From the IMG/VR virus record IMGVR_UViG_3300048861_000137, positions 5,357 through 69,356 of that record: 64,000 bases of DNA; one strand, 5' to 3'. The notes beneath the pieces were generated by a model. It was not told the origin of the DNA and did no database searches. It was given only the letters and a program-made list of their open reading frames with translations. Shown here in pieces: positions 7,289-57,430 of the stretch; positions within the stretch are counted from its first letter, which is position 1, and each line of letters begins with the position of its first letter. The DNA comes from a virus. Its lineage: Duplodnaviria > Caudoviricetes. A program made the position numbers and the translations under genes.

Positions 7289-7299
7289 TCGAAACCTTT

Positions 7300-11971: not shown

Positions 11972-12019
11972 AGCTGAGTCTGCCTTTCTGACATTGGTGG
12001 TGAAATTTTCACCAGAGCT

Positions 12020-12430: not shown

Positions 12431-12462
12431 GTCTATCTGCTTTCTGCTGCCCTACGCAGCGG

Positions 12463-12825: not shown

Positions 12826-13116
12826 CTACCTACCCTCCTTGTTGCGTTCGCGAAGCTCCTGCTCCCACAGAAGCGTGTGTATGTTGTCCAACTTGTTGAA
12901 GATCAAAACTCCCAGCTTCAGGGCATAGGAGAGCAAGTAGATGAGAGCGAAAACGGGGTTGGCATTGACGGCTGGGAACCCATGATCAATCGCGTATATC
13001 TTCCCCTCGATCTCCTCCGGACGAAAACGAACATGATCCTTGGCAGATTGAGCGTAGGCCTGAGCGATGCCTTCGATTTCCTGAATGCGGATCTCTTCAT
13101 GCCGTTCTAGTGCCAT
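12826..13116 (-). CDS. Hypothetical protein
   Basis: 96-aa ORF abutting its neighbours. Confidence 0.55.
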   Translation of the reverse strand: MALERHEEIRIQEIEGIAQAYAQSAKDHVRFRPEEIEGKIYAIDHGFPAVNANPVFALIYLLSYALKLGVLIFNKLDNIHTLLWEQELRERNKEGR

Positions 13117-13118
13117 GG

Positions 13119-14348: not shown

Positions 14349-14355
14349 CTCTCAC

Positions 14356-19672: not shown

Positions 19673-20163
19673 AATCCCTACTCCTCATTCTCGCTATGGT
19701 GGCACCGAAGCCGAAGCCACATGCTCAGAAACCTCTGTCGAACTTCTTCATGCAGGTGGACCAGAACGGTGAGCCTCTGACGGTAGAAGGGCAACTGTCC
19801 TGCTACCGGGACCCCTTCTGCGACAAGATGGTCCCGCAGCTACCTCTGGCGGTGACGGAGCTCCCGTGGCGACCTGTGATGCGGCCGAAGCCGGTAATAG
19901 AAATCAGCATCGACCAGGCGCACGAGTTTTCCGCGAGGGCTAATTGCCCTGATGGCTGGACTGTCGACGAAACGGACCTGTCACAGCCCGGTCCCTGGAC
20001 AACCAGCCAGATGAAGGCGGTGCTCGCGATGCTGGTGTGCCGTAAGAACACACACGCGGATGAGCTCGAGGAGCAGTTCTGGAGATGCCGCGGCTTCGAT
20101 AAGTTTGTACGGACGCAGGTAATGATGCACTGGTCAGGCCCAGGATGGGACGGTACAAAATGA
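19669..20163 (+). CDS. Hypothetical exported protein
   Basis: MKSLLLILAMVAP N-terminus; ATGA coupling. Confidence 0.6.
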   Translation: MKSLLLILAMVAPKPKPHAQKPLSNFFMQVDQNGEPLTVEGQLSCYRDPFCDKMVPQLPLAVTELPWRPVMRPKPVIEISIDQAHEFSARANCPDGWTVDETDLSQPGPWTTSQMKAVLAMLVCRKNTHADELEEQFWRCRGFDKFVRTQVMMHWSGPGWDGTK

Positions 20164-20789
20164 GGCGCGCCGCTATTCTCCTCCTCTCCGTCTCGATCGG
20201 CTTCCCTTCTGCGGTGGGCGTCACCGAGGTCTGCGCGATCTCCTCCGATGCAGCATGGGCTAAGCGGCTGAGGGACATCGCCAACTTCAATACCCTGCAT
20301 CCTGGCTACGTGAAGAAGCACAACCTCACCCGGGACATGCATCGGGAGACGGCTCATAACCGGGCTTACATCGAGAGGCGCTGGAAACGGATGTGCTACA
20401 TCGAGGGGGCAGTAGGAATATCCCTCGGTCCTCCCTACGCATTTTCCATTCGCGCCGAGCAGCCTTCTGCTGGAGACGATGATGCGCCTCCTTTCAGAAT
20501 GAATAATCCCGATGACCTTGAGCCAGAGGCGAAACTGCTCACCGGACTGCTTCCCGATCAGGAGTACCCAGCATATGAGAATCCCTCGGTTTCGATCGAT
20601 AGCGGCTTGGCTGGCTATCCGTACCCTGCAGGCTTTTTGCCTGGCGGCTTTGCTCCTGTGGGCGGCGGTCATGGTGTACCTGATAATCCGCCTCACGTTC
20701 CGATAGCCCCGACGCCTGAGCCGACAACGCTCTCGCTGCTTGGAACCGGTTTGCTTGTGTTGGCGAAGTTTGCAAGGAGGATGCGTTGA
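20160..20789 (+). CDS. Secreted protein with PEP-CTERM sorting signal
   Basis: N-terminal MRRAAILLLSVSIG..; C-terminal TPEPTTLSLLGTGLLVLAKFARRMR (PEP + TM + basic cluster). Confidence 0.85.
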   Translation: MRRAAILLLSVSIGFPSAVGVTEVCAISSDAAWAKRLRDIANFNTLHPGYVKKHNLTRDMHRETAHNRAYIERRWKRMCYIEGAVGISLGPPYAFSIRAEQPSAGDDDAPPFRMNNPDDLEPEAKLLTGLLPDQEYPAYENPSVSIDSGLAGYPYPAGFLPGGFAPVGGGHGVPDNPPHVPIAPTPEPTTLSLLGTGLLVLAKFARRMR

Positions 20790-28099: not shown

Positions 28100-29206
28100 A
28101 TGAGCCATGCAGAGAAGCACATCCCCGCCTTGGATGGTATTCGCGGTTTAGCTGTCCTTTTGGTCGTCTTCTACCACACCGGTGGAGGCGCTAAGTCCTC
28201 ACATCTGGCCCTTCGCACGATCGGCACCGTCAACAAGTACGGATGGAGTGGCGTCACACTGTTCTTCGTGCTGTCCGGATTCCTGATCACCGGCATCCTT
28301 TGGGACACTCGAGAAGACCCGCACCACCTCAAAAACTTCTATGCGCGTCGGTCACTGAGGATATTTCCGCTCTATTACTTCGCTCTGGCGCTGGTATTTC
28401 TGGGTTCCATTCCGTACGGAGCGTTTCACGAATGCCTGAGTCGCATCTGGGTCTATGTCCTTTACCTACAGAATGTAGACGCCTTCGGACTTCACCCGCA
28501 TGCCCTGCCATCAACACTGATTACGGTTCACTTTTGGAGCTTGGCTGTCGAGGAGCAGTTCTACCTGCTTTGGCCGGCACTGCTGCTCCGGATGAAGACG
28601 CTGAAGCAGGCGCAGAATCTCTGCCTCGCAGTCATCGTCCTATCCGCTGTCGCCCAGGTGGTGTACGCCTTTACCTCGAATCCACTTCCCCATGGAGAGT
28701 CCTTGTGGGCCAACTCAGTGAGCCTGGCGCTCGGCGGGTTCATCGCTCTCGGCCTGCGCCGCGGGCAGAACTTCCAGAGCTTGGCCCGCTACCTGATGCC
28801 GGTAACCTTCGTGGTCTTCATCCTGGGAACGCTGGGCTCGAACCGCGTGAGAACGATATTCGACCTCAATGCGCTCACCCTTTTCTGGGGATGCCTGATC
28901 GTCATCTCTTTGCGCCCAGGACTGTTCAAGAGGATGTTCGAGGTGGGGTGGCTCCGCTGGATTGGGACGATCAGCTACGGAATGTACATCTACCACTGGC
29001 TGTTTCGCGAGTATTTTGATTCGTTTACATGGAAGATTTATCCTCATGCTAGCGAGTCTACGCACCAGGGGATTCGCTTCGTCATCACGTTCATCCTGAC
29101 CATAGGGATATCGTGGTCGTCTTTCAATTATTTCGAGCGACCGATCTCGAGGCTGAAGCGTCATTTCCAGTCTAAGACGGAAGCCAAAATCGCAATTGGA
29201 GTGTAG
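28100..29206 (+). CDS. Acyltransferase family 3 (OafA-like surface polysaccharide O-acyltransferase)
   Basis: IPALDGIRGLAVLLVVFYH, GVTLFFVLSGFLIT, FYARRSLRIFPLYY, HFWSLAVEEQFY, GTISYGMYIYH, FERP. Confidence 0.95.
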   Translation: MSHAEKHIPALDGIRGLAVLLVVFYHTGGGAKSSHLALRTIGTVNKYGWSGVTLFFVLSGFLITGILWDTREDPHHLKNFYARRSLRIFPLYYFALALVFLGSIPYGAFHECLSRIWVYVLYLQNVDAFGLHPHALPSTLITVHFWSLAVEEQFYLLWPALLLRMKTLKQAQNLCLAVIVLSAVAQVVYAFTSNPLPHGESLWANSVSLALGGFIALGLRRGQNFQSLARYLMPVTFVVFILGTLGSNRVRTIFDLNALTLFWGCLIVISLRPGLFKRMFEVGWLRWIGTISYGMYIYHWLFREYFDSFTWKIYPHASESTHQGIRFVITFILTIGISWSSFNYFERPISRLKRHFQSKTEAKIAIGV

Positions 29207-31002: not shown

Positions 31003-31016
31003 AAATGGTAGTCTCT
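31003..31016 (+). promoter_or_regulatory. Conserved late-promoter-like motif, copy 1
   Basis: AAATGGTAGTCTCT upstream of the 31057 fibre gene. Confidence 0.65.
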
Positions 31017-31056
31017 GCCCGCGTTTGCGACCAATGCAGGCGCGGGGGAGCCTTCC

Positions 31057-32310
31057 ATGCGGCGTTCACGCCTTGCTCAACTGATCTTGTTCATTCTGCT
31101 AGCAGCGCTGGCCGCTCTCCTGATGCCAGCTTCCATGCTGGCTCAGATCTCAGGAACGGTAGCCGTATCCGGACACTTCGGCGATGCCGGCGGCGCTCCA
31201 ACCTCTGGATCGTACGTACATCTCCAGCTCACCAACTGCAGCAACAACATCCCTCGCGTAGTTGGATCCGGAACGATCGTCAAGCAGACGAAGGACTTTA
31301 CTCCTGACAGCAACGGCCTGATCTCCGGGCAGATCATCCCGAATGACCTGATCAACTGCGGCGGCGTGGCTGATACGACGCGCTACCTCGTCACAAACAT
31401 GGTCAACAATGTTCCGCAGGGACCGCAGCAATGCTTCCATATCGTCTCGAACGAGAATCCCTTCAACTTCGATTCGCAGACACCCTGCAGCATGGTGACA
31501 CCTCCGCCTCCTCCCCCAGGTCCGAATGATGGTGTCTTCCATAACCTGAACGTCACAGGCTTCCTCAGTGGGACAGATGCGAGCTTCTCAGGAACGCTCA
31601 CAGCCGGCATCATCCACACGAGCCATCTCTTTGCTGATCTGATCACGCTCCCATCCGGGCAGGACTGCGACAGCGGACAGTTCATGACGGGTTATGGCGC
31701 GAACCTTGAGAAACACTGCGGATCTGCTGCAGCCATCCCTGTAACAAGCGTCTTTGGTCGCGCCGGTGCCGTCGGAGCTCAGGCTGGTGACTACAACTGC
31801 GGCATGATCACTGGAGCCGTATGTTCTCTTCAAACGCTCCGCTACCAAACTGTAATCAGCAATGGCACCACTTATGCCCAGCGCAGCAAGCTCGTCCTCA
31901 ACAACGGGACGAATGCATCCGTAGCATGCGCCGATAATTCCGGGAACGACTCGACAGACTGCACAGTGTCCGCAAGCGGCAGCGGTACAGGACTGCAATG
32001 CCCGACCACGAATCAGTGCTACCGCATTGATGCTTCGGGGCTGATTGAGCAATGGGCAACGGGAACAGCGTCGTTCACCGGCCGCGGACAGACCTCGATT
32101 ACGTGGCCAATTTCCTTCCCGAACTCCTGCATCAACGTGCAGGCGACAGTTCAGTTCAATAGCCATCTTTCCTCCGGTAATTGGCAGGGAGCCGCTGCCT
32201 ACGTGCAGCCGGATAACTGTCAGACAGCAGTTCAGCTTTATATCGATATCCGCGGTGACGGCTCAGTCGATGGTCCGTTCCATGTCTTGGTCTACGGAAT
32301 GGGTCGCTAG
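31057..32310 (+). CDS. Tail-fibre-like protein with N-terminal signal peptide
   Basis: MRRSRLAQLILFILLAALAALLMPASMLA|Q; lambda Stf-N-like VSG..GDAGG.P...PDSNG; VTSVFGRAGAV fibre repeat; gp53-like GLIEQW...ITWPISFPNSC C-terminus; 14 Cys. Confidence 0.75.
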   Translation: MRRSRLAQLILFILLAALAALLMPASMLAQISGTVAVSGHFGDAGGAPTSGSYVHLQLTNCSNNIPRVVGSGTIVKQTKDFTPDSNGLISGQIIPNDLINCGGVADTTRYLVTNMVNNVPQGPQQCFHIVSNENPFNFDSQTPCSMVTPPPPPPGPNDGVFHNLNVTGFLSGTDASFSGTLTAGIIHTSHLFADLITLPSGQDCDSGQFMTGYGANLEKHCGSAAAIPVTSVFGRAGAVGAQAGDYNCGMITGAVCSLQTLRYQTVISNGTTYAQRSKLVLNNGTNASVACADNSGNDSTDCTVSASGSGTGLQCPTTNQCYRIDASGLIEQWATGTASFTGRGQTSITWPISFPNSCINVQATVQFNSHLSSGNWQGAAAYVQPDNCQTAVQLYIDIRGDGSVDGPFHVLVYGMGR

Positions 32311-32330
32311 AAATGGAGAACCTAAGCTTT

Positions 32331-35300
32331 ATGTCCAGAAGAATCGCCTTCATCCTGCTCTTTGTTTCCTCTGGCCTGGCTTTCGGGCAGGCATACCTCC
32401 CAGTCTCAGGGTCTCGAGTCAACGACAATCAGAGCCAGCCTTTGACGGGCCAAGTTCGATTCACCGTCACCGATACGAGCAACCTTCCGATCACGTACAC
32501 GCCGCAAGGTGGATCCTCGACAAACGCGACCATCACCGTGAATACCATCCGAGGCGTGGTCCAGAACACAGGAGGATTCCCGCCGACGATTCCGAACCCG
32601 GATACGATGAGCCCTGCTAATAGCCGGTACCGGATCGAGGTTATTCGCGGGCAGGTGTTGCTGACATTTCCTCTTGTGCAGATCACGGGGCGGCAGAACT
32701 TCTCCCTGGACGGCTACATAATCCCGCAAGGTGTTACGGCTTCCGGTCAGGGTATGCCTCAGTGGCCGTGCTCTCCCGGCGCGACTTACAACGATGTGAA
32801 CGGGGGAGCTCCATATCCCTGGGTTTGCTCTCAGTTATCGACAGACAATTCGATCGTCTGGACACAGAACCCATCTCTCAATCCGATGTGTCAGAAAGGA
32901 AACAGCCAGGCTATCGGATCTCCGATCAACGCCTCGGGCCCTCCATTCTGCCTCGCTGCGACGATCGCATGGGCAACTCCAGGTTATGTCTATGCAGGTC
33001 CCACACCCGCTTCAGTTCAGCCTGGACAGATAGGCCTTGTTCCTATCTCTCAACTCTGTGCTGGAGGAGCGTGCGGTACAGGAGGCAATCCAGGAGATAA
33101 CCTTCAGGAGATTCAGGCGAATAAGAACGGCACGGCGTTTCAGGGGTCAGGTTCTTATACAGACGCGAATCGCACTCTATTCTTTCAGCCCTCGGTAAAT
33201 GCTCCCTCGAGATCGTCTACATGCGGCGGACGTCAGTGCGGATTCGTTCAAAACTATGGGCAGAACGGGCCCATCAAGAATGGTAGCAACGTAGATAGTG
33301 GCTGGGGACAGAGCTTCTACAACTATCGCAACGGCCTGTGGACGGGGCTAGCCTACTTCAACGGATACAACTCAACTGTCAGCCAAGGCACCGAGCCGCC
33401 GGGGGGGTCTGCGACCTCGATGCAGAGTGACACGAATGCCTTCCACATGCAGGCCATCATGCAAGACATTGTGCTGAACAACCATGCGGGTAAGCCATAC
33501 GATACCGCGAACATTTACTCCTACCTACTCTGTCATGGTGGGTACTGGGGAGGTGGCGACGAAGGCTGCACAAACCTCCGCATCAACGGAGGCAACGACT
33601 CAAACCAACAGGGCGCAATTATCGTAAGTGGAACGCCTGCCCCAGGTGACACTACCGTCAACTATTCCAACGCCTTCCATCCCGATGACATCTTTGTCGG
33701 CGGGTTCATGATCGACATTGCGTCTCCCTCAATCTACACAGGCAACATCACAGCCTATGATCCGACGCAGCATTTGCTGACAGTTTCTCAGCCCGCTCCT
33801 CCGCTCGGTACAGGCGCGATCACGGTTCCGACCTCGGCAGGAACAACGACCGGCGCAATCACGATCGTAGATGCAGATATTCAGGCCTCGAATGGTGTAG
33901 GTGTAAGCAAGACGGTACCGGTGCGCCTTGACACAGGATCGGCCTTTTCTCCGACTGCAGTCACTCTTCTGGTCTGCGTGAATCCGACATGGGAGTTTGT
34001 GGTTCCCACCTCGTTCGTCTTTGATTCGCTAAACAATGTCTATAACCTCACAGCAACCTTTCAACATGGCCATCCCGCAGGCTGCTACGTCCAACAGGGC
34101 GGAACCTGGGGCATCGCTGACCTTCAGGCAGATCGCATCAATAACGCCATACTGAACGCATGGAGGACGGACTACTTTGTCTACGGTGCAACCGACGCTA
34201 CACACATTCACGAGGCTACCTGGATAACCGGAGCTCGCGGAGTCATCAATCAATGGCGGCACAACTTCGGCGGCTTCCAGAATCACCTCGTCAACACTGC
34301 ACAAGTTACAGGAAGTGGAACGACGGTAAAGTTCTGCGGCCTGGGGCAGTCGGGGTTGAACTTTGCCAGCAGTTATGTGAAGGTATCGAACGCTACGCCC
34401 TCTGCCTATAACGGGATTTACAACACTGGCCCAATGGACAGCAACCTCTGCACCTCGGCTCCCGGTACAGCGACCGGGCCTGTGACAGCAGCGACCCTCG
34501 ACGTGGGCGGAGATGTCAATTCTCAAGATGGAAACACCTTCGGCCCGGGTGGATTTACGATCTGGCCCACAGCCAGAATCAAGCAGTTAGGGACCAGCAT
34601 CATTACCGGAGCGAACGGTGTGCAAACCGTAGCCTACAACAACACCCTCCTTCTTTACCCCAACAATATGACTCAGGTTGCAGGCCACATCGCGGTAGTG
34701 CTCGATGACATGCAGAGCAAGGTCGAGCCTCTATCTGCTCTCGGCACGGTCGACACTGCACCAACTCAAAATACGAACAACTTCTTTCAGTCCATCGTTT
34801 CAGGTTATGGAGTAACAACGACATCATTCATCGGTGGCACCATCACGAACAATAACCCCTTTTCTTGGTACAAGGGCGGCGGAACCTGCACCATTCCTGG
34901 CGGGTTCTGCCTTGATCCGGCGATTGGCCTAAACGTAGGCGGACCCTGGGGGTACGTCATCCGAGCGCAGCAGCCAGTATCCGGAGGAACCATCCTCGAG
35001 GGCTACCCCTCGCCGATGGCCGCGGGGAATGTGGGCAATAACACCCACTTCTTTTTACGTGACGATGGGCCTGGAGGTAACGCTGGCTTCTATGTGAGCT
35101 ACAACCCCAACACCGGCATCTCGCTCATCGGTTCCGGCAAGGGTGATGGAGTCCAGTCTGCATTCACGATGACGCCCACGGACATGACGTTCTCGGCAAC
35201 GGGATCGATGACCTTCCAAACGGCGACCTTCTCAGCGAACGCTCTGCAGGGTGTTGGTACTCGCTGCCTTCATGCTAGCTCGGGCGGCCAAATCACTCCT

Positions 35301-36314
35301 ACATCAGCGGACTGCGGTGTGGTCACCGGCATCGTTCCAATTGCAAATGGAGGAAACGGAACTGCAACGCCTGCGCTGACGGCCGGGGCGAATGTGACCA
35401 TCACCGGGACGTGGCCGAATTACACGATCGCCTCGACGGGAGGCGGCGGCGGAACTGGAGTTCCCTCGGTCAACGGAGTCACAGGCGCGGTCACGATCGC
35501 GGCAGGTGCAGGCATCAATGTCGGAACCGCTGGAAGCACGATCACCATAACCAACACGGCGTCCGGCGGAACGGTGACCAGCTTCAGTAAAAATGATACT
35601 TCCGTTGCCCCGCTCTTTACCCAGACGGTAACGAATTCGTCGACGACGCCTCTACTGACCTCGACGCTTGCCGCTGCAGGGCCGCATGCCTTCTTCGGGA
35701 ACTGCTCGGGCACAACCGGAACTCCGAACTATTGCCAGCCTTCCTTTGCTGACATCTCAGGGACGATCGCAGCTGGGCAGCTTCCACTGGCCACGACTTC
35801 AGCCTTTGGAGCCGTCAAGTGCGATGGAATTACCATCACGTGCACCTCTGGGGTGATCACAGCGATCGGTGGCGGCATCGGCGGTCTTACGATTGGCAAG
35901 ATTCCGGTAGCGACGAGCTCAACAGCGATCGGAGATGGCCCCCTCGACACGACAACAAACGCAGGAGCCGTGACATCCTCGCAGGACATCTACGCTCCCT
36001 CAGTTCACGTAACCGGAAACGGAGCGTTTGGATTCAGCGGAGCGGAGGGAGTTTGCTCTCTGGGAACCTCAGGGCAGGACGGGTTGTGTGCAGACTCAAC
36101 TGCGCATCGCCTCGTCATGAACAACAACAATAGCGGAACGGTGAAGCTCGTCGGCATCGGAACCGCGGCTACCTCTGGCCATATCGCAGTCTTCTCCTCG
36201 AACGGATACGACATTCAGGATCTAGGTTCAGCGGGAATAACGGCCAGTGGCTCGAGTTGCACGATCACAGCGATGATCGCTGGCGTCATCACAGGAGCTA
36301 CATGTACCCCCTAA
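32331..36314 (+). CDS. Very large fibre/adhesin-like protein with signal peptide
   Basis: MSRRIAFILLFVSSGLAFG|Q; VSG..VND..SQPLTG N-domain; G/T/N-rich beta segments; VPSVNGVTGAVT and VPIANGGNG fibre motifs. Confidence 0.75.
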   Translation: MSRRIAFILLFVSSGLAFGQAYLPVSGSRVNDNQSQPLTGQVRFTVTDTSNLPITYTPQGGSSTNATITVNTIRGVVQNTGGFPPTIPNPDTMSPANSRYRIEVIRGQVLLTFPLVQITGRQNFSLDGYIIPQGVTASGQGMPQWPCSPGATYNDVNGGAPYPWVCSQLSTDNSIVWTQNPSLNPMCQKGNSQAIGSPINASGPPFCLAATIAWATPGYVYAGPTPASVQPGQIGLVPISQLCAGGACGTGGNPGDNLQEIQANKNGTAFQGSGSYTDANRTLFFQPSVNAPSRSSTCGGRQCGFVQNYGQNGPIKNGSNVDSGWGQSFYNYRNGLWTGLAYFNGYNSTVSQGTEPPGGSATSMQSDTNAFHMQAIMQDIVLNNHAGKPYDTANIYSYLLCHGGYWGGGDEGCTNLRINGGNDSNQQGAIIVSGTPAPGDTTVNYSNAFHPDDIFVGGFMIDIASPSIYTGNITAYDPTQHLLTVSQPAPPLGTGAITVPTSAGTTTGAITIVDADIQASNGVGVSKTVPVRLDTGSAFSPTAVTLLVCVNPTWEFVVPTSFVFDSLNNVYNLTATFQHGHPAGCYVQQGGTWGIADLQADRINNAILNAWRTDYFVYGATDATHIHEATWITGARGVINQWRHNFGGFQNHLVNTAQVTGSGTTVKFCGLGQSGLNFASSYVKVSNATPSAYNGIYNTGPMDSNLCTSAPGTATGPVTAATLDVGGDVNSQDGNTFGPGGFTIWPTARIKQLGTSIITGANGVQTVAYNNTLLLYPNNMTQVAGHIAVVLDDMQSKVEPLSALGTVDTAPTQNTNNFFQSIVSGYGVTTTSFIGGTITNNNPFSWYKGGGTCTIPGGFCLDPAIGLNVGGPWGYVIRAQQPVSGGTILEGYPSPMAAGNVGNNTHFFLRDDGPGGNAGFYVSYNPNTGISLIGSGKGDGVQSAFTMTPTDMTFSATGSMTFQTATFSANALQGVGTRCLHASSGGQITPTSADCGVVTGIVPIANGGNGTATPALTAGANVTITGTWPNYTIASTGGGGGTGVPSVNGVTGAVTIAAGAGINVGTAGSTITITNTASGGTVTSFSKNDTSVAPLFTQTVTNSSTTPLLTSTLAAAGPHAFFGNCSGTTGTPNYCQPSFADISGTIAAGQLPLATTSAFGAVKCDGITITCTSGVITAIGGGIGGLTIGKIPVATSSTAIGDGPLDTTTNAGAVTSSQDIYAPSVHVTGNGAFGFSGAEGVCSLGTSGQDGLCADSTAHRLVMNNNNSGTVKLVGIGTAATSGHIAVFSSNGYDIQDLGSAGITASGSSCTITAMIAGVITGATCTP

Positions 36315-39202
36315 GAAAACTTCTCTGGCTATTCCTGTTCACGTCCCCGCTCTGGCCCCAGGCAAAGCCTGCAATCAGCACTGGAGTGGTTGCCTATGCG
36401 CTGCCATTCTCCGCTTATGGGTACCCCCAGACGCTTCTCCCTGGATCGCAGCGAACGATGGCAATCGGCTACTGGTGCGCGAACCTTCAGGCTACGGCCT
36501 ACTCCACTGACAACACCGGGACTGTCATCACTGCCAATAACAACTTGAGCGTGGGCGATCAGGTTCAAGGACTGGGATTCATGGACGGTCCTATGGCCTT
36601 CCACCTTGGAGTCACCTACACCGTTACGGCGGCAACTGCGACCAATTTCAAGATCGGTCTAACGGACGAGAACCCGCAGAGCGGCACTACGACCACTGCC
36701 ACGATTCGCAAGACAGGCGGAGCCGGCTGCACCAGCAGGGTGAAGTGGGAGATTATCGACACCGGAAGCACAGCCGAGACCTATCGTCTGATGTCGATCG
36801 ACGGCACACAGGATACAGGAATGGTGTCTCACCCAATTATCAGTTCCACAATTCCCGTAGTCCGGATCCAGATCGGACCCATCGAGGGTGTGACCTCGAG
36901 GACCGGAGCGATCAGCACTGGCGACTTCGCACTTCATTCCACCGTGAGCCTGACACTAAAGGCGACCTCGTTAGACGATCCGACGCAGTTTGCTACCTAC
37001 AACATGATCGTGACGCACAACGGAGGTGGATACCCGGGGCTGCAAGGTAAGGCGTTTTCAAACCCCGGATTCCGCACCGTCTACAAGAACCGGGACATTC
37101 CCCTGGTGAGCCAAGTCCTCGGCAATGTGAATCAGATGGTGAATTGGACCATTGTGAGCGCTCCGGTTGGAGGCGATGCGACGATTCTCTTCCCAACCTA
37201 CCCCCATGCAGTGTTCCGCAGCGGAACCGTAGATGGCAATTACCGTGTGAAGGTGTGCCCTGCTGTCGATTCTTCTGCCGCAGCGTGCGCTTACGACACT
37301 ATCGCGGTCGGATACGAGGCAGCTCCCTCGACCAATCCCGACAAAGTAGAACTGGCTCCATGCCCGACAACTGCCGGTCCTACCGTACTGGGGGTCACGT
37401 GGGGAACCATCTACGACATCGGCAAGACTGGAAGCGGTACGCCTGATCTTCTGAGTATCCCGCAGAACCCTGTTGGCCCGGTCCTCGTTCGACTATGGAA
37501 CAACGGAGCGGCAGGAGCTCCAACGGAGTACCACAATCAAACTCAGATCAACCCACCATCGGGAGGCCCGTTCAGCGATCAGCGGCCAGCGTTCTTCATG
37601 TGCAGCGTCAAGGCTTCAAATGGAGAGCTTGCTGTCGTGGACGGCGCGGATGCGACGGCGAACTCCTGGGCGAGTCAGTACGTCGTCGGTCCTTACTCGA
37701 TCTTCGGTATAGCGGGTGGGTCTGGTGGCTCTGCGCTTCCCACGGCAGACCCGTTCGACTTCAACACCGTCACCATTCAGAACATTCACTTCCGACACGT
37801 CACCCAGGGGTACTTCTACTATTCTGTTGTCGATGGGACGCGACAGCCGTGGGGGGAGTCTTCCGGACCTCGGCCCAGCAACTCTATCCAGAATTTCAAT
37901 CTGATCGGCAACCGCATCGAGGATGTGTCGGATGGCATCTTCGATGACTGCAACGCTCAGAACCAAGGCATGAATCATTGCACGATGGACACCTTCGACG
38001 AGGGGAACCATCTCTCCGGCTACGGGTATCCCGGAGACTTTCTCGCTCACCCCTACTACAAGCAAGCGATGCGAACTTACTCCATGCTGAACCTGCTCGA
38101 CGGAGCCATACCTGGGTCTCAGGGAACGGCATGGTTCTCAGATCGTGGGACTCGCAGTTTCCACATGTATAACCGATTTGTTACAAATGACCCGACAGCG
38201 CAGGGTTCCGTCGTTGCCGGTCACTCGGAGAATCAGGACGCGCACAACATCCTGAATCTCGATTCCTTTTGGGGATATCAGGGTAGTTCAACCTGCGATG
38301 TGGCCGATTCCACTGCGATTGGATGTCTACCTGGTTGGGTCCTAGATCCAGTCGCATGGCAGGCGGCCATCGTCGAAGAACATAACCGAACCGACTACAT
38401 GATTGGGAATGCAATATCCGTTCCCAACGTATACAAGTCCTTCGGTGTGGCGATGACGCACTCATGGTTCAGCTATCAGCCTTATGGTGTGGGCGGATGG
38501 AACCGTGAGTGGTCCCCGGAGAATCTCTCGCAGAATCTATGGTTCGCTTACAACACTGTGCAATATGGAGCGCCTTCGGTTGCAGCTGGAGGACTGGCCC
38601 TCATTGAGGACGTAAGACTCAATTTCTCCGACGCCGGCGAGAGCATCACCTACCTCCTACAGCCGCAGTATTACCCGGAAATCTGGATGACCAACAATCT
38701 GATCCCGTTGGACAAGCAGGTCGGGTGCGATTACGCATGCAACGTGCTGAATATCAGCGCCCACCAATTGACCCACTTTCAAACGAATATGTTCGGTGGC
38801 ATCACTACGCCGGCGGGCCCGTTCAACTCAAATACCGGCGCCTACGCTACGAACGGGTGGAATCTCAACCCTGCGGTCTCCGACTGGGGGAGCATTGACC
38901 CGATAACCGATCACCTTTCCGGTTGGACGACGAGCAACTTCCTCAATTATTCGACCTTCCCGATCAACGCCACATCACTCGTTCCGATTCCTGGATCCGC
39001 GGCGATCGGCAAGGCTACGACGTTGACGGGAGATGTCTCTGCATATCCCCCAAGATTCAATGCCGTCGACGCGAATATGAGTCCATTCACCCTTCGCCAA
39101 CAGCCGACGACACTGGGAGCTTATGACTCAGGAGCACAGCCACCTGCACCACCTACGAATTTCGGGGTGGGAAGAATCTTCGGCTCTGGAGTTTTTCGAT
39201 AG
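36302..39202 (+). CDS. Secreted Ig-like + right-handed beta-helix protein (possible polysaccharide-binding/depolymerase)
   Basis: MYPLRKLLWLFLFTSPLWP|Q; VNWTIVS Ig-like repeats; TIQNIHF, LIGNRIED, EGNHL, MIGNAI beta-helix-like rungs. Confidence 0.65.
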   Translation: MYPLRKLLWLFLFTSPLWPQAKPAISTGVVAYALPFSAYGYPQTLLPGSQRTMAIGYWCANLQATAYSTDNTGTVITANNNLSVGDQVQGLGFMDGPMAFHLGVTYTVTAATATNFKIGLTDENPQSGTTTTATIRKTGGAGCTSRVKWEIIDTGSTAETYRLMSIDGTQDTGMVSHPIISSTIPVVRIQIGPIEGVTSRTGAISTGDFALHSTVSLTLKATSLDDPTQFATYNMIVTHNGGGYPGLQGKAFSNPGFRTVYKNRDIPLVSQVLGNVNQMVNWTIVSAPVGGDATILFPTYPHAVFRSGTVDGNYRVKVCPAVDSSAAACAYDTIAVGYEAAPSTNPDKVELAPCPTTAGPTVLGVTWGTIYDIGKTGSGTPDLLSIPQNPVGPVLVRLWNNGAAGAPTEYHNQTQINPPSGGPFSDQRPAFFMCSVKASNGELAVVDGADATANSWASQYVVGPYSIFGIAGGSGGSALPTADPFDFNTVTIQNIHFRHVTQGYFYYSVVDGTRQPWGESSGPRPSNSIQNFNLIGNRIEDVSDGIFDDCNAQNQGMNHCTMDTFDEGNHLSGYGYPGDFLAHPYYKQAMRTYSMLNLLDGAIPGSQGTAWFSDRGTRSFHMYNRFVTNDPTAQGSVVAGHSENQDAHNILNLDSFWGYQGSSTCDVADSTAIGCLPGWVLDPVAWQAAIVEEHNRTDYMIGNAISVPNVYKSFGVAMTHSWFSYQPYGVGGWNREWSPENLSQNLWFAYNTVQYGAPSVAAGGLALIEDVRLNFSDAGESITYLLQPQYYPEIWMTNNLIPLDKQVGCDYACNVLNISAHQLTHFQTNMFGGITTPAGPFNSNTGAYATNGWNLNPAVSDWGSIDPITDHLSGWTTSNFLNYSTFPINATSLVPIPGSAAIGKATTLTGDVSAYPPRFNAVDANMSPFTLRQQPTTLGAYDSGAQPPAPPTNFGVGRIFGSGVFR

Positions 39203-39320: not shown

Positions 39321-39800
39321 ATGGAACAAACGGAACAGACCGGAGGCGATTCGATGACCCCAACAGAGATAAATGCGATCGTGAATACCGTCGTGGATCA
39401 ACGGATCCAGATCTTCAAGAGCCAATTAGACCTCGATCTGATGCCGCTCAGGCTAACCGTTCAGAAAATCGAGCAGGAGCAAACAGAGAATCGCCAGGTC
39501 AACATGGCAACACAGGCGCTCTTGAATCGAACCGTCGGGACGGTCGACGCTTTCGTGGATACGATGACGGAGTACCGCCGGCAGGATCAGGTTTGGCAGA
39601 AAGAACTTCTCTCGAAATTCAGTTCCCACGTGGGAGAGCACATCGGCGAGGAGCGTGCCGAAAAAGAACAGACCGAGGACGAAGAGCGCGCAGCTGACAG
39701 TCGCCGGAAATGGATCAAGATAGGTATCGGAATCCTGGGATCAAGCGCGTTTTTGCGGTGGGTTCACGATCACTGGGCAAAACTTACCGGACCCCGTTGA
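39321..39800 (+). CDS. Coiled-coil protein with C-terminal TM helix (holin-like)
   Basis: C-terminal WIKIGIGILGSSAFLRW; directly before the endolysin. Confidence 0.5.
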   Translation: MEQTEQTGGDSMTPTEINAIVNTVVDQRIQIFKSQLDLDLMPLRLTVQKIEQEQTENRQVNMATQALLNRTVGTVDAFVDTMTEYRRQDQVWQKELLSKFSSHVGEHIGEERAEKEQTEDEERAADSRRKWIKIGIGILGSSAFLRWVHDHWAKLTGPR

Positions 39801-39803
39801 CAT

Positions 39804-39817
39804 AAATGGTAGTCTCT
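39804..39817 (+). promoter_or_regulatory. Conserved late-promoter-like motif, copy 2
   Basis: AAATGGTAGTCTCT upstream of the endolysin. Confidence 0.65.
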
Positions 39818-39827
39818 CGCCGCCCTG

Positions 39828-40286
39828 ATGGAGGAATCGGTGGAGCACAGAGACTATTTCATGCTAGCTCTCTGCCTTTGGCGCGAAGCCAGAGGCGAAG
39901 GCCCAGACGGCATGACAGCCGTGGGATGCGTCGTTCGCAACCGGGTCGTTCGAAACGTATCTTCCTACTACGAAGAAGTCGTGAAGCCTCTGCAGTTCTC
40001 TTCGATCACTGCGCCGGGCGACCATCAGCTCTGCCTCTACTCCCATGAGAACGATCATTCCTGGCAAGTCGCTGAGGAGATCGCTCGCAAGATTATCGAT
40101 CGAGAGATCGGAGATCTGACCGCCGGAGCGACCCTCTATTGGAATCCTGCCGGCATAGCGGAGAAGGATTCCAAGCCCTACACGCTCAAGGATGGATCTA
40201 TCGTCCGGTTTCCCGGCTCATGGAATCCGCATGCTGTTCTCCAAACCGTGCGCATCGGCGCACACATCTTCCTTCGAGAGGTCTAA
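39828..40286 (+). CDS. Cell-wall hydrolase, SleB/Hydrolase_2 family (endolysin)
   Basis: LALCLWREARGE...AVGCVVRNR...QFS...DLTAGATLY...IGAHIF. Confidence 0.88.
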   Translation: MEESVEHRDYFMLALCLWREARGEGPDGMTAVGCVVRNRVVRNVSSYYEEVVKPLQFSSITAPGDHQLCLYSHENDHSWQVAEEIARKIIDREIGDLTAGATLYWNPAGIAEKDSKPYTLKDGSIVRFPGSWNPHAVLQTVRIGAHIFLREV

Positions 40287-40700
40287 ATGTTGTCCGAATT
40301 GATCAAATTCATACTTCTGCATCCGATCGCGGTTCTGATATTTGTCTTTACCCTCGCCGGGCTATGGACGCTGGCTTCCTTCATTGGCGTCATGCCGCCG
40401 CTCAAGGAAGGAGCCGGATGGTGGGCCCGATGGGGATATGCGTGTGCGCAGGTATTCGCGGGAAACATCAAAGCTGCTGCTCACGTCGCGTCTCAGACTA
40501 GGTTCGCGAAGCAGATCGAATCAGAGTTGATGAACGCAGACGGTTCGACTCTGAAGCAGATCTCTACTGCGAGTGTGTCTGGAAGTTCAGAAACTGTAAC
40601 CAAGTTGGCGCCGACGGTAAATACCCCAACTGTCGTTCAACCGGTGCCTCAAGCTGTCCAGCCCGTCTCCTCTACACCCGTGGAACTATCCAAGCCGTAA
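40287..40700 (+). CDS. Membrane protein in lysis cassette (holin/i-spanin candidate)
   Basis: N-terminal hydrophobic helices; abuts the endolysin. Confidence 0.5.
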   Translation: MLSELIKFILLHPIAVLIFVFTLAGLWTLASFIGVMPPLKEGAGWWARWGYACAQVFAGNIKAAAHVASQTRFAKQIESELMNADGSTLKQISTASVSGSSETVTKLAPTVNTPTVVQPVPQAVQPVSSTPVELSKP

Positions 40701-40730
40701 ACCATCTAGTCATTCTCAAGGAAAACTCCC

Positions 40731-41348
40731 ATGAAGTTTCTCCGCAAGTTATCCATACCAGCGATCGCCGCGGTTGTCGCAGCATCGCTCATCATTGCCC
40801 CCACCACAGGATGCTCCAGCGCTGACGTACAGAAGGCTGTTTCCCTCGTACAGGCTGAGATTCCTACAGCGATCGCTCTGATCGGCGATCTCGCGCCAAT
40901 CATCATCGCCTTTGCCGGACCGAACGGTGGTCAAGTATCCACAGCCGTTCCACAGATAAACCAAAAACTTACTGACCTACAGGCCCTCTGCCAGCAGTAC
41001 ACTGCAAACCCCGGCAATGATACGTTTAGCAGCATCGTCAATATGGTGGATCAGCTTGTCACCGAAGGCGATACTGCTCTGCTCGATCTCGCTAACGTCA
41101 AGAGTTCACCGAGCCAAGCCACCGCCATGACTCTGCTAGGTTCCCTCTCGGCAGTCCTTCATATCATCGACGGATATGTCCAAGCGACCCAGTCAGCCGC
41201 CCAGGTGAAGGCGACCGCCCAGAGGAGAGCAGTCAAGTTGCAGGCGGTACATGCTTACTGGTCGCAGCAAGACAAGAAACAGATCGAATCTGCCTTCAAT
41301 ACAAACTTCGACAAGCTTTACAGCCAGGAACTCGCTATCGGCTTCTAG
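40731..41348 (+). CDS. Lipoprotein (spanin-like candidate)
   Basis: MKFLRK + hydrophobic core + TTG|C lipobox-like site; helical body. Confidence 0.6.
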   Translation: MKFLRKLSIPAIAAVVAASLIIAPTTGCSSADVQKAVSLVQAEIPTAIALIGDLAPIIIAFAGPNGGQVSTAVPQINQKLTDLQALCQQYTANPGNDTFSSIVNMVDQLVTEGDTALLDLANVKSSPSQATAMTLLGSLSAVLHIIDGYVQATQSAAQVKATAQRRAVKLQAVHAYWSQQDKKQIESAFNTNFDKLYSQELAIGF

Positions 41349-41450: not shown

Positions 41451-42257
41451 ATGATGAAGCACGTCCTCAACGTTATCAAGGACATCTTTGACCCACGGGA
41501 TCACGCTGTAGCACCGAACCGTAAGGACAACGTTTCCATTAGCTTTCGGGAACTTGTTCCGTACTGGAAGAATCAGGGAACCGCAGGCAGCTGCACCGGC
41601 CATGCCGGGACGGAGATGCTCGAGATGCTCTATCGCCGACAATGGTCCCGCCTGGGCCAGAGAGTCGATGTCAACAACCTACGATTTTCGCCCATGTTCC
41701 TCTACACGATGGAACGGGTTCTCGAGGGTACATTCTCGATCGACGCCGGCGCAGAGTCACGATCCATCTTCCAAGCCCTTGCCAAAATCGGCTGCTGCCT
41801 GGAATCGGACGATCCCTACAACGAAGCCGAAGTTATCACCATGCCGACGCCAGCCCAGATCGAATCCGCGACGCAATACAAGATCGGCGCCTATCACCGA
41901 ATTCTTGACGTGGACACTGCGAAGACGGTATTGGAATCCGGCTACACGTTCACCATCGGCATCCCGGTTTTTCAGCAGATTGAAAGTGATGAAGCCGCTG
42001 CCACAGGGTTCCTCCGAGTCCCGAAGAATTCGGATTCTCCTATTGGCGGACATGAGATGCACGTCATCGGAGCCAACGATTCGAAGGAAGTACTCGGAGA
42101 GGTCGGTGCCTTCGAGGTTCAGAATTCCTGGGGTAAAGGCTGGGGCGATCATGGGTGCGCTTGGATCCCGTATCGCTACTTTGAAGCGACCGAGAGTGAG
42201 TGGGACATGTGGACTGCTCACTTCGGCAAGCCTTGGAAGCCAAAGAAAGATGCCTAA
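41451..42257 (+). CDS. Papain-like cysteine peptidase (C1 family)
   Basis: QGTAGSCTGHA (Q, C), GGHEMHVIG (H), VQNSWGKGWGDHG (N). Confidence 0.92.
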   Translation: MMKHVLNVIKDIFDPRDHAVAPNRKDNVSISFRELVPYWKNQGTAGSCTGHAGTEMLEMLYRRQWSRLGQRVDVNNLRFSPMFLYTMERVLEGTFSIDAGAESRSIFQALAKIGCCLESDDPYNEAEVITMPTPAQIESATQYKIGAYHRILDVDTAKTVLESGYTFTIGIPVFQQIESDEAAATGFLRVPKNSDSPIGGHEMHVIGANDSKEVLGEVGAFEVQNSWGKGWGDHGCAWIPYRYFEATESEWDMWTAHFGKPWKPKKDA

Positions 42258-46101: not shown

Positions 46102-46113
46102 AAATGGTAGTCT
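46102..46113 (+). promoter_or_regulatory. Conserved late-promoter-like motif, copy 4
   Basis: AAATGGTAGTCT upstream of the scaffold gene. Confidence 0.65.
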
Positions 46114-46124
46114 GCGCCGCGCTT

Positions 46125-50880: not shown

Positions 50881-51243
50881 ATGAAGGTTTTACGCTGTCT
50901 CGGTGTCTTGATTCTCGCTCTGGCTGCTTCGACTTCGTATGGTCAGAAGCTAAAGGCGTCGTCCCCACATACCGCTACGTTCACATGGACTGCATCTGTT
51001 GATGGCGGTTCCGTGTCCCTCTACCGCGCCTCGTCGGCGTGCTCGGCAACTCCTACCAGTTTCACCGTGGTACAAAGCGGACTTCCCGCAGCTGGCCCGG
51101 CCGCAGATTCGACCGTGACCGCTGGGGCGTGGTGCTACTACGTGACCACTACGGTTCAAGGACTGGAGTCTGCTGCTTCAAACAAAATCACCATCACGGT
51201 GTTACCCCAACCACCGGCAGGGCTGGCTGGAGCGGTTGATTGA
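50881..51243 (+). CDS. Secreted single fibronectin-III/Ig-like domain protein
   Basis: MKVLRCLGVLILALAASTSYG|Q; ATFTWTAS...LYR...YYVTT...ESAASN Fn3 pattern. Confidence 0.75.
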   Translation: MKVLRCLGVLILALAASTSYGQKLKASSPHTATFTWTASVDGGSVSLYRASSACSATPTSFTVVQSGLPAAGPAADSTVTAGAWCYYVTTTVQGLESAASNKITITVLPQPPAGLAGAVD

Positions 51244-57416: not shown

Positions 57417-57430
57417 AAATGGTAGTCTCT
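57417..57430 (+). promoter_or_regulatory. Conserved late-promoter-like motif, copy 5
   Basis: AAATGGTAGTCTCT upstream of the ejection-protein operon. Confidence 0.65.

What the first reader, a model, noticed from the sequence alone, without database searches (positions are those of the whole stretch)
31057..39202. Three tail-fibre/adhesin-like late proteins all carry Sec signal peptides and paired cysteines: a possible periplasm-folded virion fibre system
Seen: each of the three consecutive late genes (31057, 32331, 36302) starts with a basic n-region, a hydrophobic h-region and a small-residue cleavage site followed by Gln. After the signal, the first two begin with a domain resembling the lambda Stf N-terminal virion-anchor (VSG..xD..G.P) and contain VxSVxGxxGAV fibre repeats. 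The first ends in a gp53-like fibre tip and has 14 Cys spaced as neighbouring pairs. Established: tailed-phage fibres normally assemble in the reducing cytoplasm and have no signal peptide. Inference: these proteins are exported, oxidatively folded in the periplasm and dock onto virions at or after lysis. Alternatively they are fibre-derived adhesins displayed on the lysogen. They sit behind the same late-promoter motif as the capsid genes, which favours a virion-linked role.
Basis: partly seen in the sequence, partly recalled or inferred. Interest (0 to 1): 0.88.

Follow-up and report, generated by a model that had tools for sequence, protein, structure and literature searches.

The report
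Phage tail fibres carrying secretion signals
A complete 69-kb uncultured phage of soil Acidobacteriota puts ordinary bacterial secretion signals and paired cysteines on three consecutive tail-fibre or tailspike-like late proteins, so its host-recognition gear very probably folds in the periplasm, not in the cytoplasm where tailed-phage particles are built; I found no paper describing this route.

Summary
ORF1 (31057-32310), ORF2 (32331-36314) and ORF3 (36302-39202) each open, behind a ribosome site, with a Sec-type leader. About 100 homologues keep the leader although its sequence drifts. After the leader, ORF1 and ORF2 carry a beta-sandwich that folds like virion-docking collar domains, including lambda gpStfN (Z 8.1 and 6.0). 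ORF1 ends in a pyocin/gp53-type fibre tip (Z 10.1). All three have even cysteine counts. A 17-nt motif is shared with the lysis and morphogenesis operons.

Three further results:
- Leaderless homologues of the ORF2 N-domain sit behind gene J in Acidobacteriaceae prophages.
- Other Acidobacteriota phages also put leaders on their fibre or spike cassette.
- In cultured Cellulophaga phage phi18:3, three leader-bearing proteins in the same gene position are annotated as structural proteins from MS/MS.

Best reading (0.45): exported, disulfide-stabilised receptor-binding proteins that join particles at lysis. Main rival (0.3): exported but free enzymes or adhesins. Export itself and virion membership are untested. 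No trained signal-peptide predictor was available.

Notes from this scan describe the same phenomenon on other DNA (514 notes, at least 448 genomes). Later checks there priced the bold reading at about 10%.

The parts
31003..31019 (+). Late-operon motif AAATGGTAGTCTCTGCC, 38 nt before the ORF1 start
   Evidence: Five + strand copies in the window against 0.15 expected. The others precede the endolysin (39804), the morphogenesis genes (42318, 46102) and lie at 57417. Promoter function is inferred.
31057..32310 (+). ORF1, 417 aa. Leader 31057-31146; collar-like beta-sandwich 31153-31494; fibre repeat 31741-31773; pyocin/gp53-type tip 31960-32307; 14 Cys.
   Evidence: Pfam PF21882 E = 3.6e-11. 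PHROG tail-fibre families. Homologues keep the leader. Fold matches: tip Z 10.1 to 6cxb; N-domain Z 9.2 to 8keg_a and Z 8.1 to 9e7m_Ta.
32331..36314 (+). ORF2, 1327 aa. Leader 32331-32387; collar-like beta-sandwich 32388-32735; Cys-bearing second subdomain 32736-33080; fibre repeat 35460-35492; 26 Cys in 13 near pairs.
   Evidence: No Pfam or PHROG hit. The N-domain family has 50 cluster representatives, with the domain at the N-terminus in about 40; those all carry leaders and have variable C-terminal modules. AF2 model pLDDT 81. Fold hits to phage fibre collars at Z 6.0-6.5. BFVD hits to minor tail and fibre proteins. Cys pairing P about 1e-4.
36302..39202 (+). ORF3, 966 aa. Weak leader 36302-36364, then Ig-like plus probable beta-helix body; 12 Cys, 10 of them invariant in the family.
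   Evidence: Homologues nearly all carry canonical leaders ending before Gln. Atlas look-alikes are Acidobacteriota Ig-like repeat proteins (TM 0.66) and Pel9A-like beta-helix proteins (feature score 0.89, a lead only). Relatives sit in phage contigs L040-L043.
39321..39800 (+). Conserved 159-aa coiled-coil protein with a C-terminal hydrophobic segment, between the cassette and the lysis genes
   Evidence: 36% identical homologue in the same place in L007. No family hit. Role unknown.
39828..41348 (+). Lysis cassette: endolysin 39828-40286, membrane protein 40287-40700 (holin candidate), lipoprotein 40731-41348 (spanin candidate)
   Evidence: Hydrolase_2 E = 1.8e-8 and PHROG endolysin. Hydrophobic segments and a lipobox-like ..TTGC were read from the translations. 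Late motif at 39804.
50881..51243 (+). A fourth leader-bearing protein: 120 aa, Fn3/Ig-like, inside the morphogenesis operon
   Evidence: Leader ending ..SYG|Q; two Cys in the mature part. Not studied further.
28100..29206 (+). Context: O-antigen acetyltransferase-like gene upstream of the cassette
   Evidence: Acyl_transf_3 E = 5e-30; PHROG O-acetyltransferase E = 1.8e-48.

Best explanation
ORF1, ORF2 and ORF3 are the phage's fibre or spike-type host-recognition proteins. They are made late, together with the lysis and morphogenesis genes. Each carries a working Sec signal peptide and is threaded into the periplasm. Signal peptidase I cuts it, for ORF1 and ORF2 in front of a Gln, as in the host's own secreted proteins. 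The protein then folds and trimerises there with disulfide bonds.

The collar-type beta-sandwich now at the mature N-terminus of ORF1 and ORF2 docks the fibre onto the tail or neck of particles built in the cytoplasm. Docking happens once holin, endolysin and spanin have joined the compartments, or shortly after release. ORF3 has no collar domain. It either rides on another fibre or acts as a free enzyme.

Shown here: the sequence features, their conservation, the fold likeness and the gene order. Inferred: export, cleavage, disulfides, docking and its timing.
For: **Leaders are real gene features, not start-codon artefacts.**
- Ribosome sites precede each start.
- The n-h-c property is conserved while the sequence drifts, in homologues of ORF1, the ORF2 N-domain and ORF3.

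**Leaders look host-adapted.** In a 400-kb sample of Terriglobus albidus, 13 of 36 leader-like N-termini have Gln at +1, against 4.1% Gln overall (crude rule).

**Signs of folding outside the cytoplasm.**
- Cys counts are even: 14, 26 and 12.
- ORF2 has 13 sequential near pairs, P about 1e-4.
- 10 of ORF3's 12 Cys are invariant at 38% mean column identity.

**Fibre identity.**
- ORF1 tip: Z 10.1 to the R1 pyocin fibre and Z 8.4 to AP22 gp53; PF21882.
- ORF1 N-domain: Z 9.2 to the cyanophage A-1(L) neck fibre, Z 8.1 to Ur-lambda gpStfN (92 of 94 residues), Z 7.6 to the Bxb1 tail tip. The 94-residue chain is the Stf collar domain (PMC12617516).
- ORF2 N-domain hits the same structures at Z 6.0-6.5 and many phage minor tail or fibre proteins in BFVD.

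**The N-domain is a true virion-fibre module.**
- Leaderless homologues begin exactly where the mature leader-bearing forms begin.
- One directly follows the central fibre J (phrog_31) in a lambda-like prophage (L032). Another (L029) matches tail-fibre phrog_4201.

**RBP-like modularity.** A conserved N-domain carries swapped C-terminal modules, including beta-helix, pectate-lyase-like and K1-lyase_C.

**Position in other phages.**
- The cassette is syntenic in related 62-69 kb phages.
- In the complete P22-like 40.6-kb phage G154, the only large fibre or spike-like gene is a 1512-aa leader-bearing protein, and it sits in the tailspike slot.
- L003 and L041-L043 show the same pattern.

**Late co-regulation motif**.

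**Experimental precedent.** Cellulophaga phage phi18:3 gp085-087 are annotated 'structural protein, experimental MS/MS proteomics'. All three begin with Sec leaders followed by Gln. They occupy the same gene position: before the membrane proteins, endolysin, portal and capsid genes.
Against: - Tailed-phage particles assemble in the cytoplasm. I found no published case of Sec-exported virion fibres.
- One paper uses the absence of signal peptides as a mark of phage receptor-binding proteins (PMC6199706).
- Mixing with particles only at lysis looks inefficient.
- The window has other, leaderless tail proteins that could bind the host: 52451-55189, and 55453-56949 with Ig-like domains. G154 has a small leaderless fibre-repeat protein.
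- Fold scores of Z 6-9 on a common beta-sandwich are suggestive only; transthyretin-like domains score Z 5-6.
- ORF3's cleavage site is poor.
- MS/MS of purified particles can pick up co-purifying envelope proteins.
- No sequence similarity ties this phage to Cellulophaga phages.
- Later checks of sister findings in this scan priced this bold reading near 10%.
Confidence: 0.45

Rival explanations
1. The proteins are exported but are not part of the virion. They are fibre-derived free enzymes or adhesins that gather in the periplasm late in infection. There, or after release, they cut or bind envelope or exopolysaccharide. This would help progeny escape, destroy receptors on debris, or block superinfection. 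The collar domain is an inherited remnant or anchors them to an envelope component.
For: - The leaders themselves.
- The cassette sits between an O-antigen acetyltransferase and the lysis genes.
- ORF3 and some ORF2-family C-termini look like beta-helix glycan-active domains.
- The window and G154 hold leaderless tail proteins that might serve as the real receptor binders.
- In prophage L032 a leaderless and a leader-bearing paralogue sit side by side with unrelated C-termini.
Against: - The N-domain is the best conserved part (55-69% identity) while the C-termini are swapped. That points to a conserved docking partner.
- Some small phages would spend up to about 30% of their genome on non-virion proteins: about 10 kb of leader-bearing genes in the 34-kb contig of L003.
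- phi18:3 leader-bearing proteins were found in particles.
Confidence: 0.3
2. They are fibre-like adhesins displayed on the surface of the lysogen, comparable to the Bdellovibrio MAT fibres. They change the host's adhesion or surface properties rather than serving the virion.
For: - MAT fibres have the same layout: signal peptide, a conserved beta-rich N-domain of about 130 aa, a trimeric fibre and swappable tips (PMC10769870).
- The phage is temperate-looking, with a CI-like repressor, and carries other surface-related genes: a PEP-CTERM protein and an O-acetyltransferase.
Against: - The cassette shares the motif of the lysis and morphogenesis operons, so it is probably silent in a lysogen.
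- No outer-membrane anchor or secretion signal beyond Sec was seen.
- The ORF2 N-domain is rare in host genomes (8 of 151) and lies in prophage tail modules.
Confidence: 0.1
3. The leaders do not lead to export of the functional pool. They might be cleaved or ignored late in infection. They might act as uncleaved membrane tethers. A leaderless form might be made from an internal start. In all these cases the fibres would assemble on particles in the cytoplasm as usual.
For: - ORF3's cleavage site is atypical.
- ORF1 has in-frame Met codons at residues 23 and 27, just before the predicted cleavage site.
- Leaderless homologues show that the domain can work without a leader.
Against: - The leaders are canonical and strongly hydrophobic, and about 100 homologues keep them.
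- ORF2 and most homologues have no internal Met near the cleavage site.
- Conserved paired cysteines fit folding outside the cytoplasm.
Confidence: 0.07

Closest known systems
Leader-bearing structural proteins gp085-gp087 of cultured Cellulophaga phage phi18:3, and gp079-gp083 of phi46:3 (Pachyviridae)
   Same: - Several consecutive large proteins begin with Sec leaders followed by Gln.
- They lie just upstream of membrane proteins and the endolysin, then the portal, capsid, adaptor, nozzle and giant internal protein genes.
- The genomes are about 70 kb and encode a chaperonin.
- The phi18:3 proteins are annotated as structural from MS/MS.
   Different: - The host phylum differs (Bacteroidota).
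- No sequence similarity was detected: ORF1-3 find nothing in GenBank phages, and portal and capsid show no BLASTP similarity.
- The Cellulophaga proteins have few cysteines (0-3).
- I found no paper that comments on their leaders.
Side tail fibre Stf of phage Ur-lambda (gpStfN collar domain, PDB 9e7m), and the leaderless fibres that follow gene J in lambda-like prophages
   Same: - An N-terminal beta-sandwich of about 95-115 residues is followed by a trimeric fibre and a receptor-binding tip.
- ORF1 N-domain aligns to gpStfN at Z 8.1 over 92 of 94 residues, ORF2 at Z 6.0.
- Leaderless homologues of the ORF2 N-domain sit right after J.
   Different: - Stf has no signal peptide and assembles in the cytoplasm.
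- Identity is only 10-17%.
- The window's phage has no recognisable J, and its tail type has not been determined.
Bdellovibrio bacteriovorus MAT (mosaic adhesive trimer) fibres
   Same: Signal peptide, then a conserved beta-rich N-domain, then a phage-fibre-like trimer with swappable tips (PMC10769870).
   Different: MAT fibres are a chromosomal multigene family of a predatory bacterium, shown on its surface. Here the genes are phage late genes. Homology was not tested.
R-type pyocin and Acinetobacter phage AP22 gp53 fibre tips (Pfam Gp53-like_C)
   Same: The ORF1 C-terminal domain matches by profile (E = 3.6e-11) and by fold (Z 10.1, 8.9, 8.4).
   Different: Those fibres carry no leader. The rest of ORF1 is unrelated in sequence.
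Q-rule signal-peptide genes of Porphyromonas gingivalis phages (Matrishin et al. 2023, PMC10367356)
   Same: Phage genes carry host-style Sec leaders that expose Gln after cleavage.
   Different: Those genes are of unknown function and are discussed as host-surface modifiers, not tail parts. The Q-rule is described as specific to Bacteroidetes (PMC5837995).

Membership tests
Sec / signal peptidase I substrates | Basic n-region, hydrophobic h-region of about 10-20 residues, c-region with small residues at -3 and -1 | tested here: met
   ORF1 and ORF2 fit. ORF3 fits the n- and h-regions but has a poor c-region. This rests on a crude rule of my own.
Sec / signal peptidase I substrates | The leader property is conserved in homologues while the leader sequence diverges | tested here: met
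Sec / signal peptidase I substrates | Acceptance by a trained predictor (SignalP, Phobius) and experimental export | not testable with these tools
Lambda Stf-type fibres with an N-terminal collar domain | N-terminal beta-sandwich with the gpStfN fold | tested here: inconclusive
   ORF1 Z 8.1 (rmsd 3.0, 92 of 94 residues). ORF2 Z 6.0 (87 of 94 residues). This is a common fold and Z is near the noise limit of 7-8.
Lambda Stf-type fibres with an N-terminal collar domain | Gene placed after the central fibre J in a long-tailed phage | tested here: not met
   No J-like gene was recognised in the window. The feature is met only by distant homologues in prophages.
Lambda Stf-type fibres with an N-terminal collar domain | Cytoplasmic protein without a leader | tested here: not met
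   ORF1 and ORF2 both carry leaders.
Gp53-like_C / pyocin fibre tip (PF21882) | Profile match above Pfam's gathering score | tested here: met
   43.9 bits against a cut-off of 24.9.
Gp53-like_C / pyocin fibre tip (PF21882) | Same fold as solved members | tested here: met
   Z 10.1 to 6cxb and Z 8.4 to 4mtm over about 100 residues. The model pLDDT there is about 62-81.
Pachyviridae-type leader-bearing virion proteins | Leader-bearing cassette upstream of the lysis and head genes | tested here: met
Pachyviridae-type leader-bearing virion proteins | Sequence relatedness to the Cellulophaga phage proteins | tested here: not met
   tblastn of ORF1, the ORF2 N-domain and ORF3 against GenBank phages found nothing. 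Portal and capsid show no BLASTP similarity.
Pachyviridae-type leader-bearing virion proteins | Presence in purified particles | not testable with these tools
   The phage is uncultured.
Right-handed beta-helix polysaccharide depolymerases (ORF3) | Profile or fold match to beta-helix families | tested here: inconclusive
   No Pfam or PHROG match. Atlas feature score of 0.89 to Pel9A-like clusters is a lead only. ORF3 was not folded here.
Bdellovibrio MAT fibres | Signal peptide, then a conserved beta-rich N-domain, then variable tips | tested here: met
   The architecture matches only. Homology was not tested.

The most novel reading that the evidence does not exclude
Many tailed phages of diderm bacteria (Acidobacteriota here; Bacteroidota and others in sister findings) complete their particles in two compartments. 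Heads and tails are built in the cytoplasm. The receptor-binding fibres and spikes are exported by Sec, processed and disulfide-bonded in the periplasm, and join the particle only when lysis merges the compartments. Leader gain and loss on one and the same collar domain would then switch a fibre between the two routes.
Probability: 0.4. Interest if true: 0.9.

Novelty: new variant of a known kind. Interest (0 to 1): 0.62.

Why it matters
- **Assembly model.** If these fibres really mature in the periplasm, the textbook view that all tailed-phage parts assemble in the cytoplasm needs amending.
- **Consequences.** Fibres could then carry disulfides, and in other hosts glycans, that the cytoplasm cannot make. 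Phage infectivity would depend on the host's Sec, signal peptidase and Dsb systems. It would also change how receptor-binding proteins are recognised in metagenomes and how they should be expressed for engineering.
- **Annotation.** If they are free exported enzymes instead, they are a large unannotated class of phage late proteins that act on the soil bacterial envelope.
- **Testability.** Either outcome can be tested in cultured systems: Cellulophaga phages, and a prophage in Terriglobus albidus DSM 26559.

Tried and rejected
- Contexts of hits P0002, P0003 and P0005 could not be fetched, so I used the search for related loci and the genome search instead.
- **Single-sequence scans of viral contigs.** ORF1 and ORF2 found nothing. 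Alignments were needed.
- **Genome scans.** One pattern for the ORF2 N-domain found nothing.
- **Solved structures, by sequence.** Only weak fibre-tip hits for ORF1 and nothing for ORF2 or ORF3. A profile of the N-domain gave only a chance-level match to lambda Lom (E = 0.17).
- **Foldseek against PDB, ORF2 N-domain.** No match at E <= 0.001.
- **ORF1 and ORF2 N-domains compared.** The profile match covers little more than the leader and the first strand (83% probability over 44 columns). Their common fold rests on the structure searches.
- **Tat export.** Considered because ORF1 and ORF2 have RR. Rejected because homologues lack RR and the h-regions are short and strongly hydrophobic.
- **SAR-type anchors.** Rejected because the h-regions are Leu/Ile/Phe-rich rather than Gly/Ala-rich.
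- **ORF3 as a common chromosomal family of the host clade.** Not found: 1 weak match in 151 Acidobacteriaceae genomes searched.
- **Other leader-bearing fibre proteins.** Pfam on ten of them found almost nothing.
- **Candidate leaderless fibre 55453-56949.** The Atlas search was uninformative.
- **Literature.** No paper on Sec-exported tail fibres was found. The Holmfeldt 2013 paper behind the phi18:3 proteomics is not held.
- **Complex prediction.** Not used. The docking partner is unknown, so a blind pick would not have moved the odds.

Full report
**What the DNA is.** The window is the last 64,000 bases of a 69,356-bp IMG/VR virus record. The record has 127-bp direct terminal repeats and CheckV rates it 100% complete.
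- The left arm (minus strand) holds early genes: a DnaB-like helicase, GroEL, an SMC-like ATPase, an exonuclease and a CI-like repressor.
- The right arm (plus strand) runs in this order: a DNA methyltransferase, an O-antigen acetyltransferase-like gene, the three genes of the finding, a lysis cassette, and about 20 kb of morphogenesis genes.
- Those morphogenesis genes match almost nothing in Pfam or PHROGs.
- Relatives of ORF1's fibre repeat lie only in Terriglobus, Terriglobales and other Acidobacteriota genomes, so that phylum is the likely host.

**The observation.** ORF1 (31057-32310, 417 aa), ORF2 (32331-36314, 1327 aa) and ORF3 (36302-39202, 966 aa) are real and tightly packed. Each is preceded by a ribosome site.
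- Each opens with a basic stretch and a strongly hydrophobic stretch.
- ORF1 and ORF2 then have a small-residue cleavage site in front of Gln.
- ORF3's leader is weaker. Its Gln20 is nearly invariant in the family, but the residues before it fit the -3/-1 rule poorly.
- No trained predictor was available, so I relied on a crude rule and on conservation.
- With that rule, leader-like N-termini among the large ORFs of this and ten related phage loci were almost confined to the fibre cassette. The portal, capsid, terminase and internal proteins never had them. The rule missed a few cassette proteins, including ORF3.

**Conservation of the leaders.**
- ORF1 has 17 homologues. All full-length ones keep a leader, including those whose next domain differs.
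- The first 260 residues of ORF2 find 50 cluster representatives among 1.8 billion proteins. In about 40 of them the domain sits at the very N-terminus, in proteins of 111 to 2008 aa. Every one of those has a canonical leader ending ..A|Q.
- Full-length ORF3 homologues also nearly all have canonical leaders.
- The leader sequences differ widely while the property is kept. Functional signal peptides behave this way.

**Host-style cleavage.** I sampled 400 kb of Terriglobus albidus DSM 26559. Of 36 leader-like N-termini, 13 had Gln at +1, against 4.1% Gln overall. The estimate is crude, but the phage leaders resemble the host's own. A '+1 Gln rule' has been published only for Bacteroidetes (PMC5837995).

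**Cysteines.** The counts are 14, 26 and 12, all even.
- ORF2's 26 Cys fall into 13 sequential near pairs (P about 1e-4).
- ORF3 shows weaker pairing (P = 0.02).
- Ten of ORF3's 12 Cys are invariant across 13 sequences whose mean column identity is 38%.
- Internal and ejection-type proteins of these phages have few or no Cys.
- Cys density alone is not diagnostic: the portal has 12.

**What the proteins are.**
- ORF1's C-terminus matches Pfam Gp53-like_C (E = 3.6e-11).
- In a modest AF2 model, that C-terminus aligns to the R1 and R2 pyocin fibre tips (Z 10.1, 8.9) and to AP22 gp53 (Z 8.4).
- The domain right after ORF1's leader (residues 33-146) aligns to N-terminal docking domains of fibres in solved virions: the cyanophage A-1(L) neck fibre (Z 9.2), Ur-lambda chain Ta (Z 8.1, 92 of 94 residues) and the Bxb1 tail tip (Z 7.6).
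- The Ur-lambda chain is gpStfN, the collar domain that fastens the side tail fibre to the tail (PMC12617516).
- ORF2's N-domain was modelled at pLDDT 81. It hits the same three structures at Z 6.0-6.5 and many phage minor tail or fibre proteins in BFVD.
- These scores lie near the level where a common beta-sandwich can match by chance. Transthyretin-like domains score 5-6. I therefore rate the Stf likeness as supported at fold level, not as proven homology.
- Both proteins carry the tail-fibre repeat, at ORF1 229-239 and ORF2 1044-1054.
- ORF3 has no collar domain. Atlas look-alikes suggest Ig-like domains plus a beta-helix.

**Leaderless relatives.** The ORF2 N-domain profile matched 8 of 151 Acidobacteriaceae genomes, at nine places.
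- Six proteins carry leaders. Three do not.
- The leaderless ones begin with Met plus two to four residues, exactly where the mature leader-bearing forms begin.
- In prophage L032 the order is tape measure, minor tail proteins, central fibre J (phrog_31, E = 2e-53), a leaderless 719-aa member, a leader-bearing 906-aa member (tail-fibre phrog_5073), then membrane proteins.
- The two L032 members share only the N-domain.
- The leaderless member in L029 matches tail-fibre phrog_4201 at E = 4e-97.
- So the domain is a genuine virion-fibre module, and the leader is an add-on that comes and goes.
- One of the six leader-bearing examples (L021) comes from genome G004, which is flagged unpublished. 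No conclusion depends on it.

**Wider pattern in Acidobacteriota phages.**
- Related 62-69 kb phages (L007, L008, L009) have, at the same place, two to five leader-bearing proteins with conserved N-domains and swapped C-termini.
- Family members carry beta-helix, pectate-lyase-like, K1-lyase_C or CBM modules.
- Unrelated smaller phages show the same thing. G154 is a complete 40.6-kb genome with P22-like order: terminase, portal phrog_156, scaffold, adaptor Ad3, head closure Hc3, a 169-aa leaderless fibre-repeat protein, and ejection-type proteins. Its only large fibre or spike-like gene is a 1512-aa leader-bearing protein in the tailspike slot, next to a glycosyltransferase.
- L003 and L041-L043 end their structural operons with three to five leader-bearing, Cys-rich proteins.

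**Regulation.** The 17-nt motif AAATGGTAGTCTCTGCC occurs five times, all on the plus strand, against 0.15 expected.
- The copies lie before ORF1, before the endolysin, before the morphogenesis genes at 42.3 and 46.1 kb, and at 57.4 kb.
- Promoter function is inferred. Still, the shared motif argues that the cassette is expressed with the lysis and virion genes, not as a lysogen-expressed moron.

**Precedent.** Notes from this scan describe the same phenomenon on other DNA (514 notes in at least 448 genomes matched my search words) and gave a lead to Cellulophaga phages. I checked the lead myself.
- In GenBank record KC821620 (phi18:3, Pachyviridae, cultured), gp085, gp086 and gp087 are annotated 'structural protein, annotation based on experimental MS/MS proteomics analysis'.
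- All three begin with Sec leaders followed by Gln.
- phi46:3 gp079-gp083 do the same.
- Their gene order mirrors the window: leader cassette, small membrane proteins, endolysin, chaperonin, portal, scaffold, capsid, adaptor, nozzle, internal proteins, giant protein.
- No sequence similarity to the window was detectable, so this is an analogy, not shown kinship.
- I found no paper that discusses these leaders. The paper behind the proteomics is not held.
- Published near neighbours are the Q-rule genes of unknown function in Porphyromonas phages (PMC10367356) and the Bdellovibrio MAT fibres (PMC10769870).

**Weighing.**
- That these proteins are exported I put at about 0.85.
- That they are the phage's own receptor-binding appendages and join particles at lysis I put at 0.45.
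  - For: the collar fold, the leaderless homologues at the stf position, RBP-like modularity, the tailspike-slot synteny, the late motif and the phi18:3 proteomics.
  - Against: the compartment problem, the lack of any experiment, other possible leaderless tail proteins, and the modest fold scores.
- The main rival is exported free enzymes or adhesins for egress, receptor destruction or exclusion (0.3). It explains the leaders and the neighbourhood equally well. It explains the conserved docking domain less well.
- Lysogen surface display (0.1) fits the MAT layout but not the late motif.
- Non-functional leaders (0.07) are unlikely given their conservation.
- Later checks of sister findings priced the bold reading near 10%. 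I rate it higher here because of the leaderless paralogues and the phi18:3 annotation, both of which I verified. It remains unproven.

**Novelty.** The fibre domains are of known kinds. The conserved Sec leader on them is a variant I could not find described in print, although this scan has met it repeatedly. If the periplasmic route is real, it would be a new assembly pathway for tailed phages.

Noticed in passing
L044-L063 (Terriglobus albidus DSM 26559, G002 contig C39): By a crude rule, 13 of 36 leader-like N-termini in a 400-kb host sample have Gln at +1, against 4.1% Gln overall. This suggests a Q-rule-like bias in Acidobacteriota, a trait published as specific to Bacteroidetes.
   Followed up: partly
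window 46102-46118 and 31003-31019: The late motif contains ATG. At 46104 that ATG is the listed start of the 520-aa acidic scaffold-like ORF, and at 31005 it opens a 100-aa out-of-frame ORF. The true start of the 46104 gene may lie further downstream.
   Followed up: no
window 50881-51243: A 120-aa Fn3/Ig-like protein with a leader ending before Gln and two mature Cys, lying between morphogenesis genes. It is a fourth exported late protein.
   Followed up: partly
window 20145-20789: A leader-bearing protein with a PEP-CTERM sorting motif (Pfam E = 7.4e-5). No exosortase was seen in the window.
   Followed up: no
window 6941-7306 (- strand): A small early-arm ORF with an internal Met start gives a canonical leader ending ..ALA|Q, so this is another exported phage protein.
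   Followed up: no
window 59355-59397 and 61710-61752: The giant protein of more than 1549 aa repeats a 43-nt stretch at 84% identity (peptide ATEP.HLD..EFEE) about 2.3 kb apart, which suggests an internal duplication.
   Followed up: no
window 41451-42257: A papain-family (C1) cysteine peptidase gene lies right after the lysis cassette (Pfam E = 1.7e-5; PHROG peptidase E = 3.3e-11).
   Followed up: no
L032 (G057 prophage) 9868-12027 and 12069-14789: A leaderless and a leader-bearing fibre share only the N-domain and sit side by side after gene J. This is a natural pair for testing what the leader does.
   Followed up: partly
L036-L038 (G154, complete 40.6-kb phage): A P22-like Acidobacteriota phage has a 1512-aa leader-bearing protein in its tailspike slot, next to a glycosyltransferase on the opposite strand.
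   Followed up: partly
   Followed up: no
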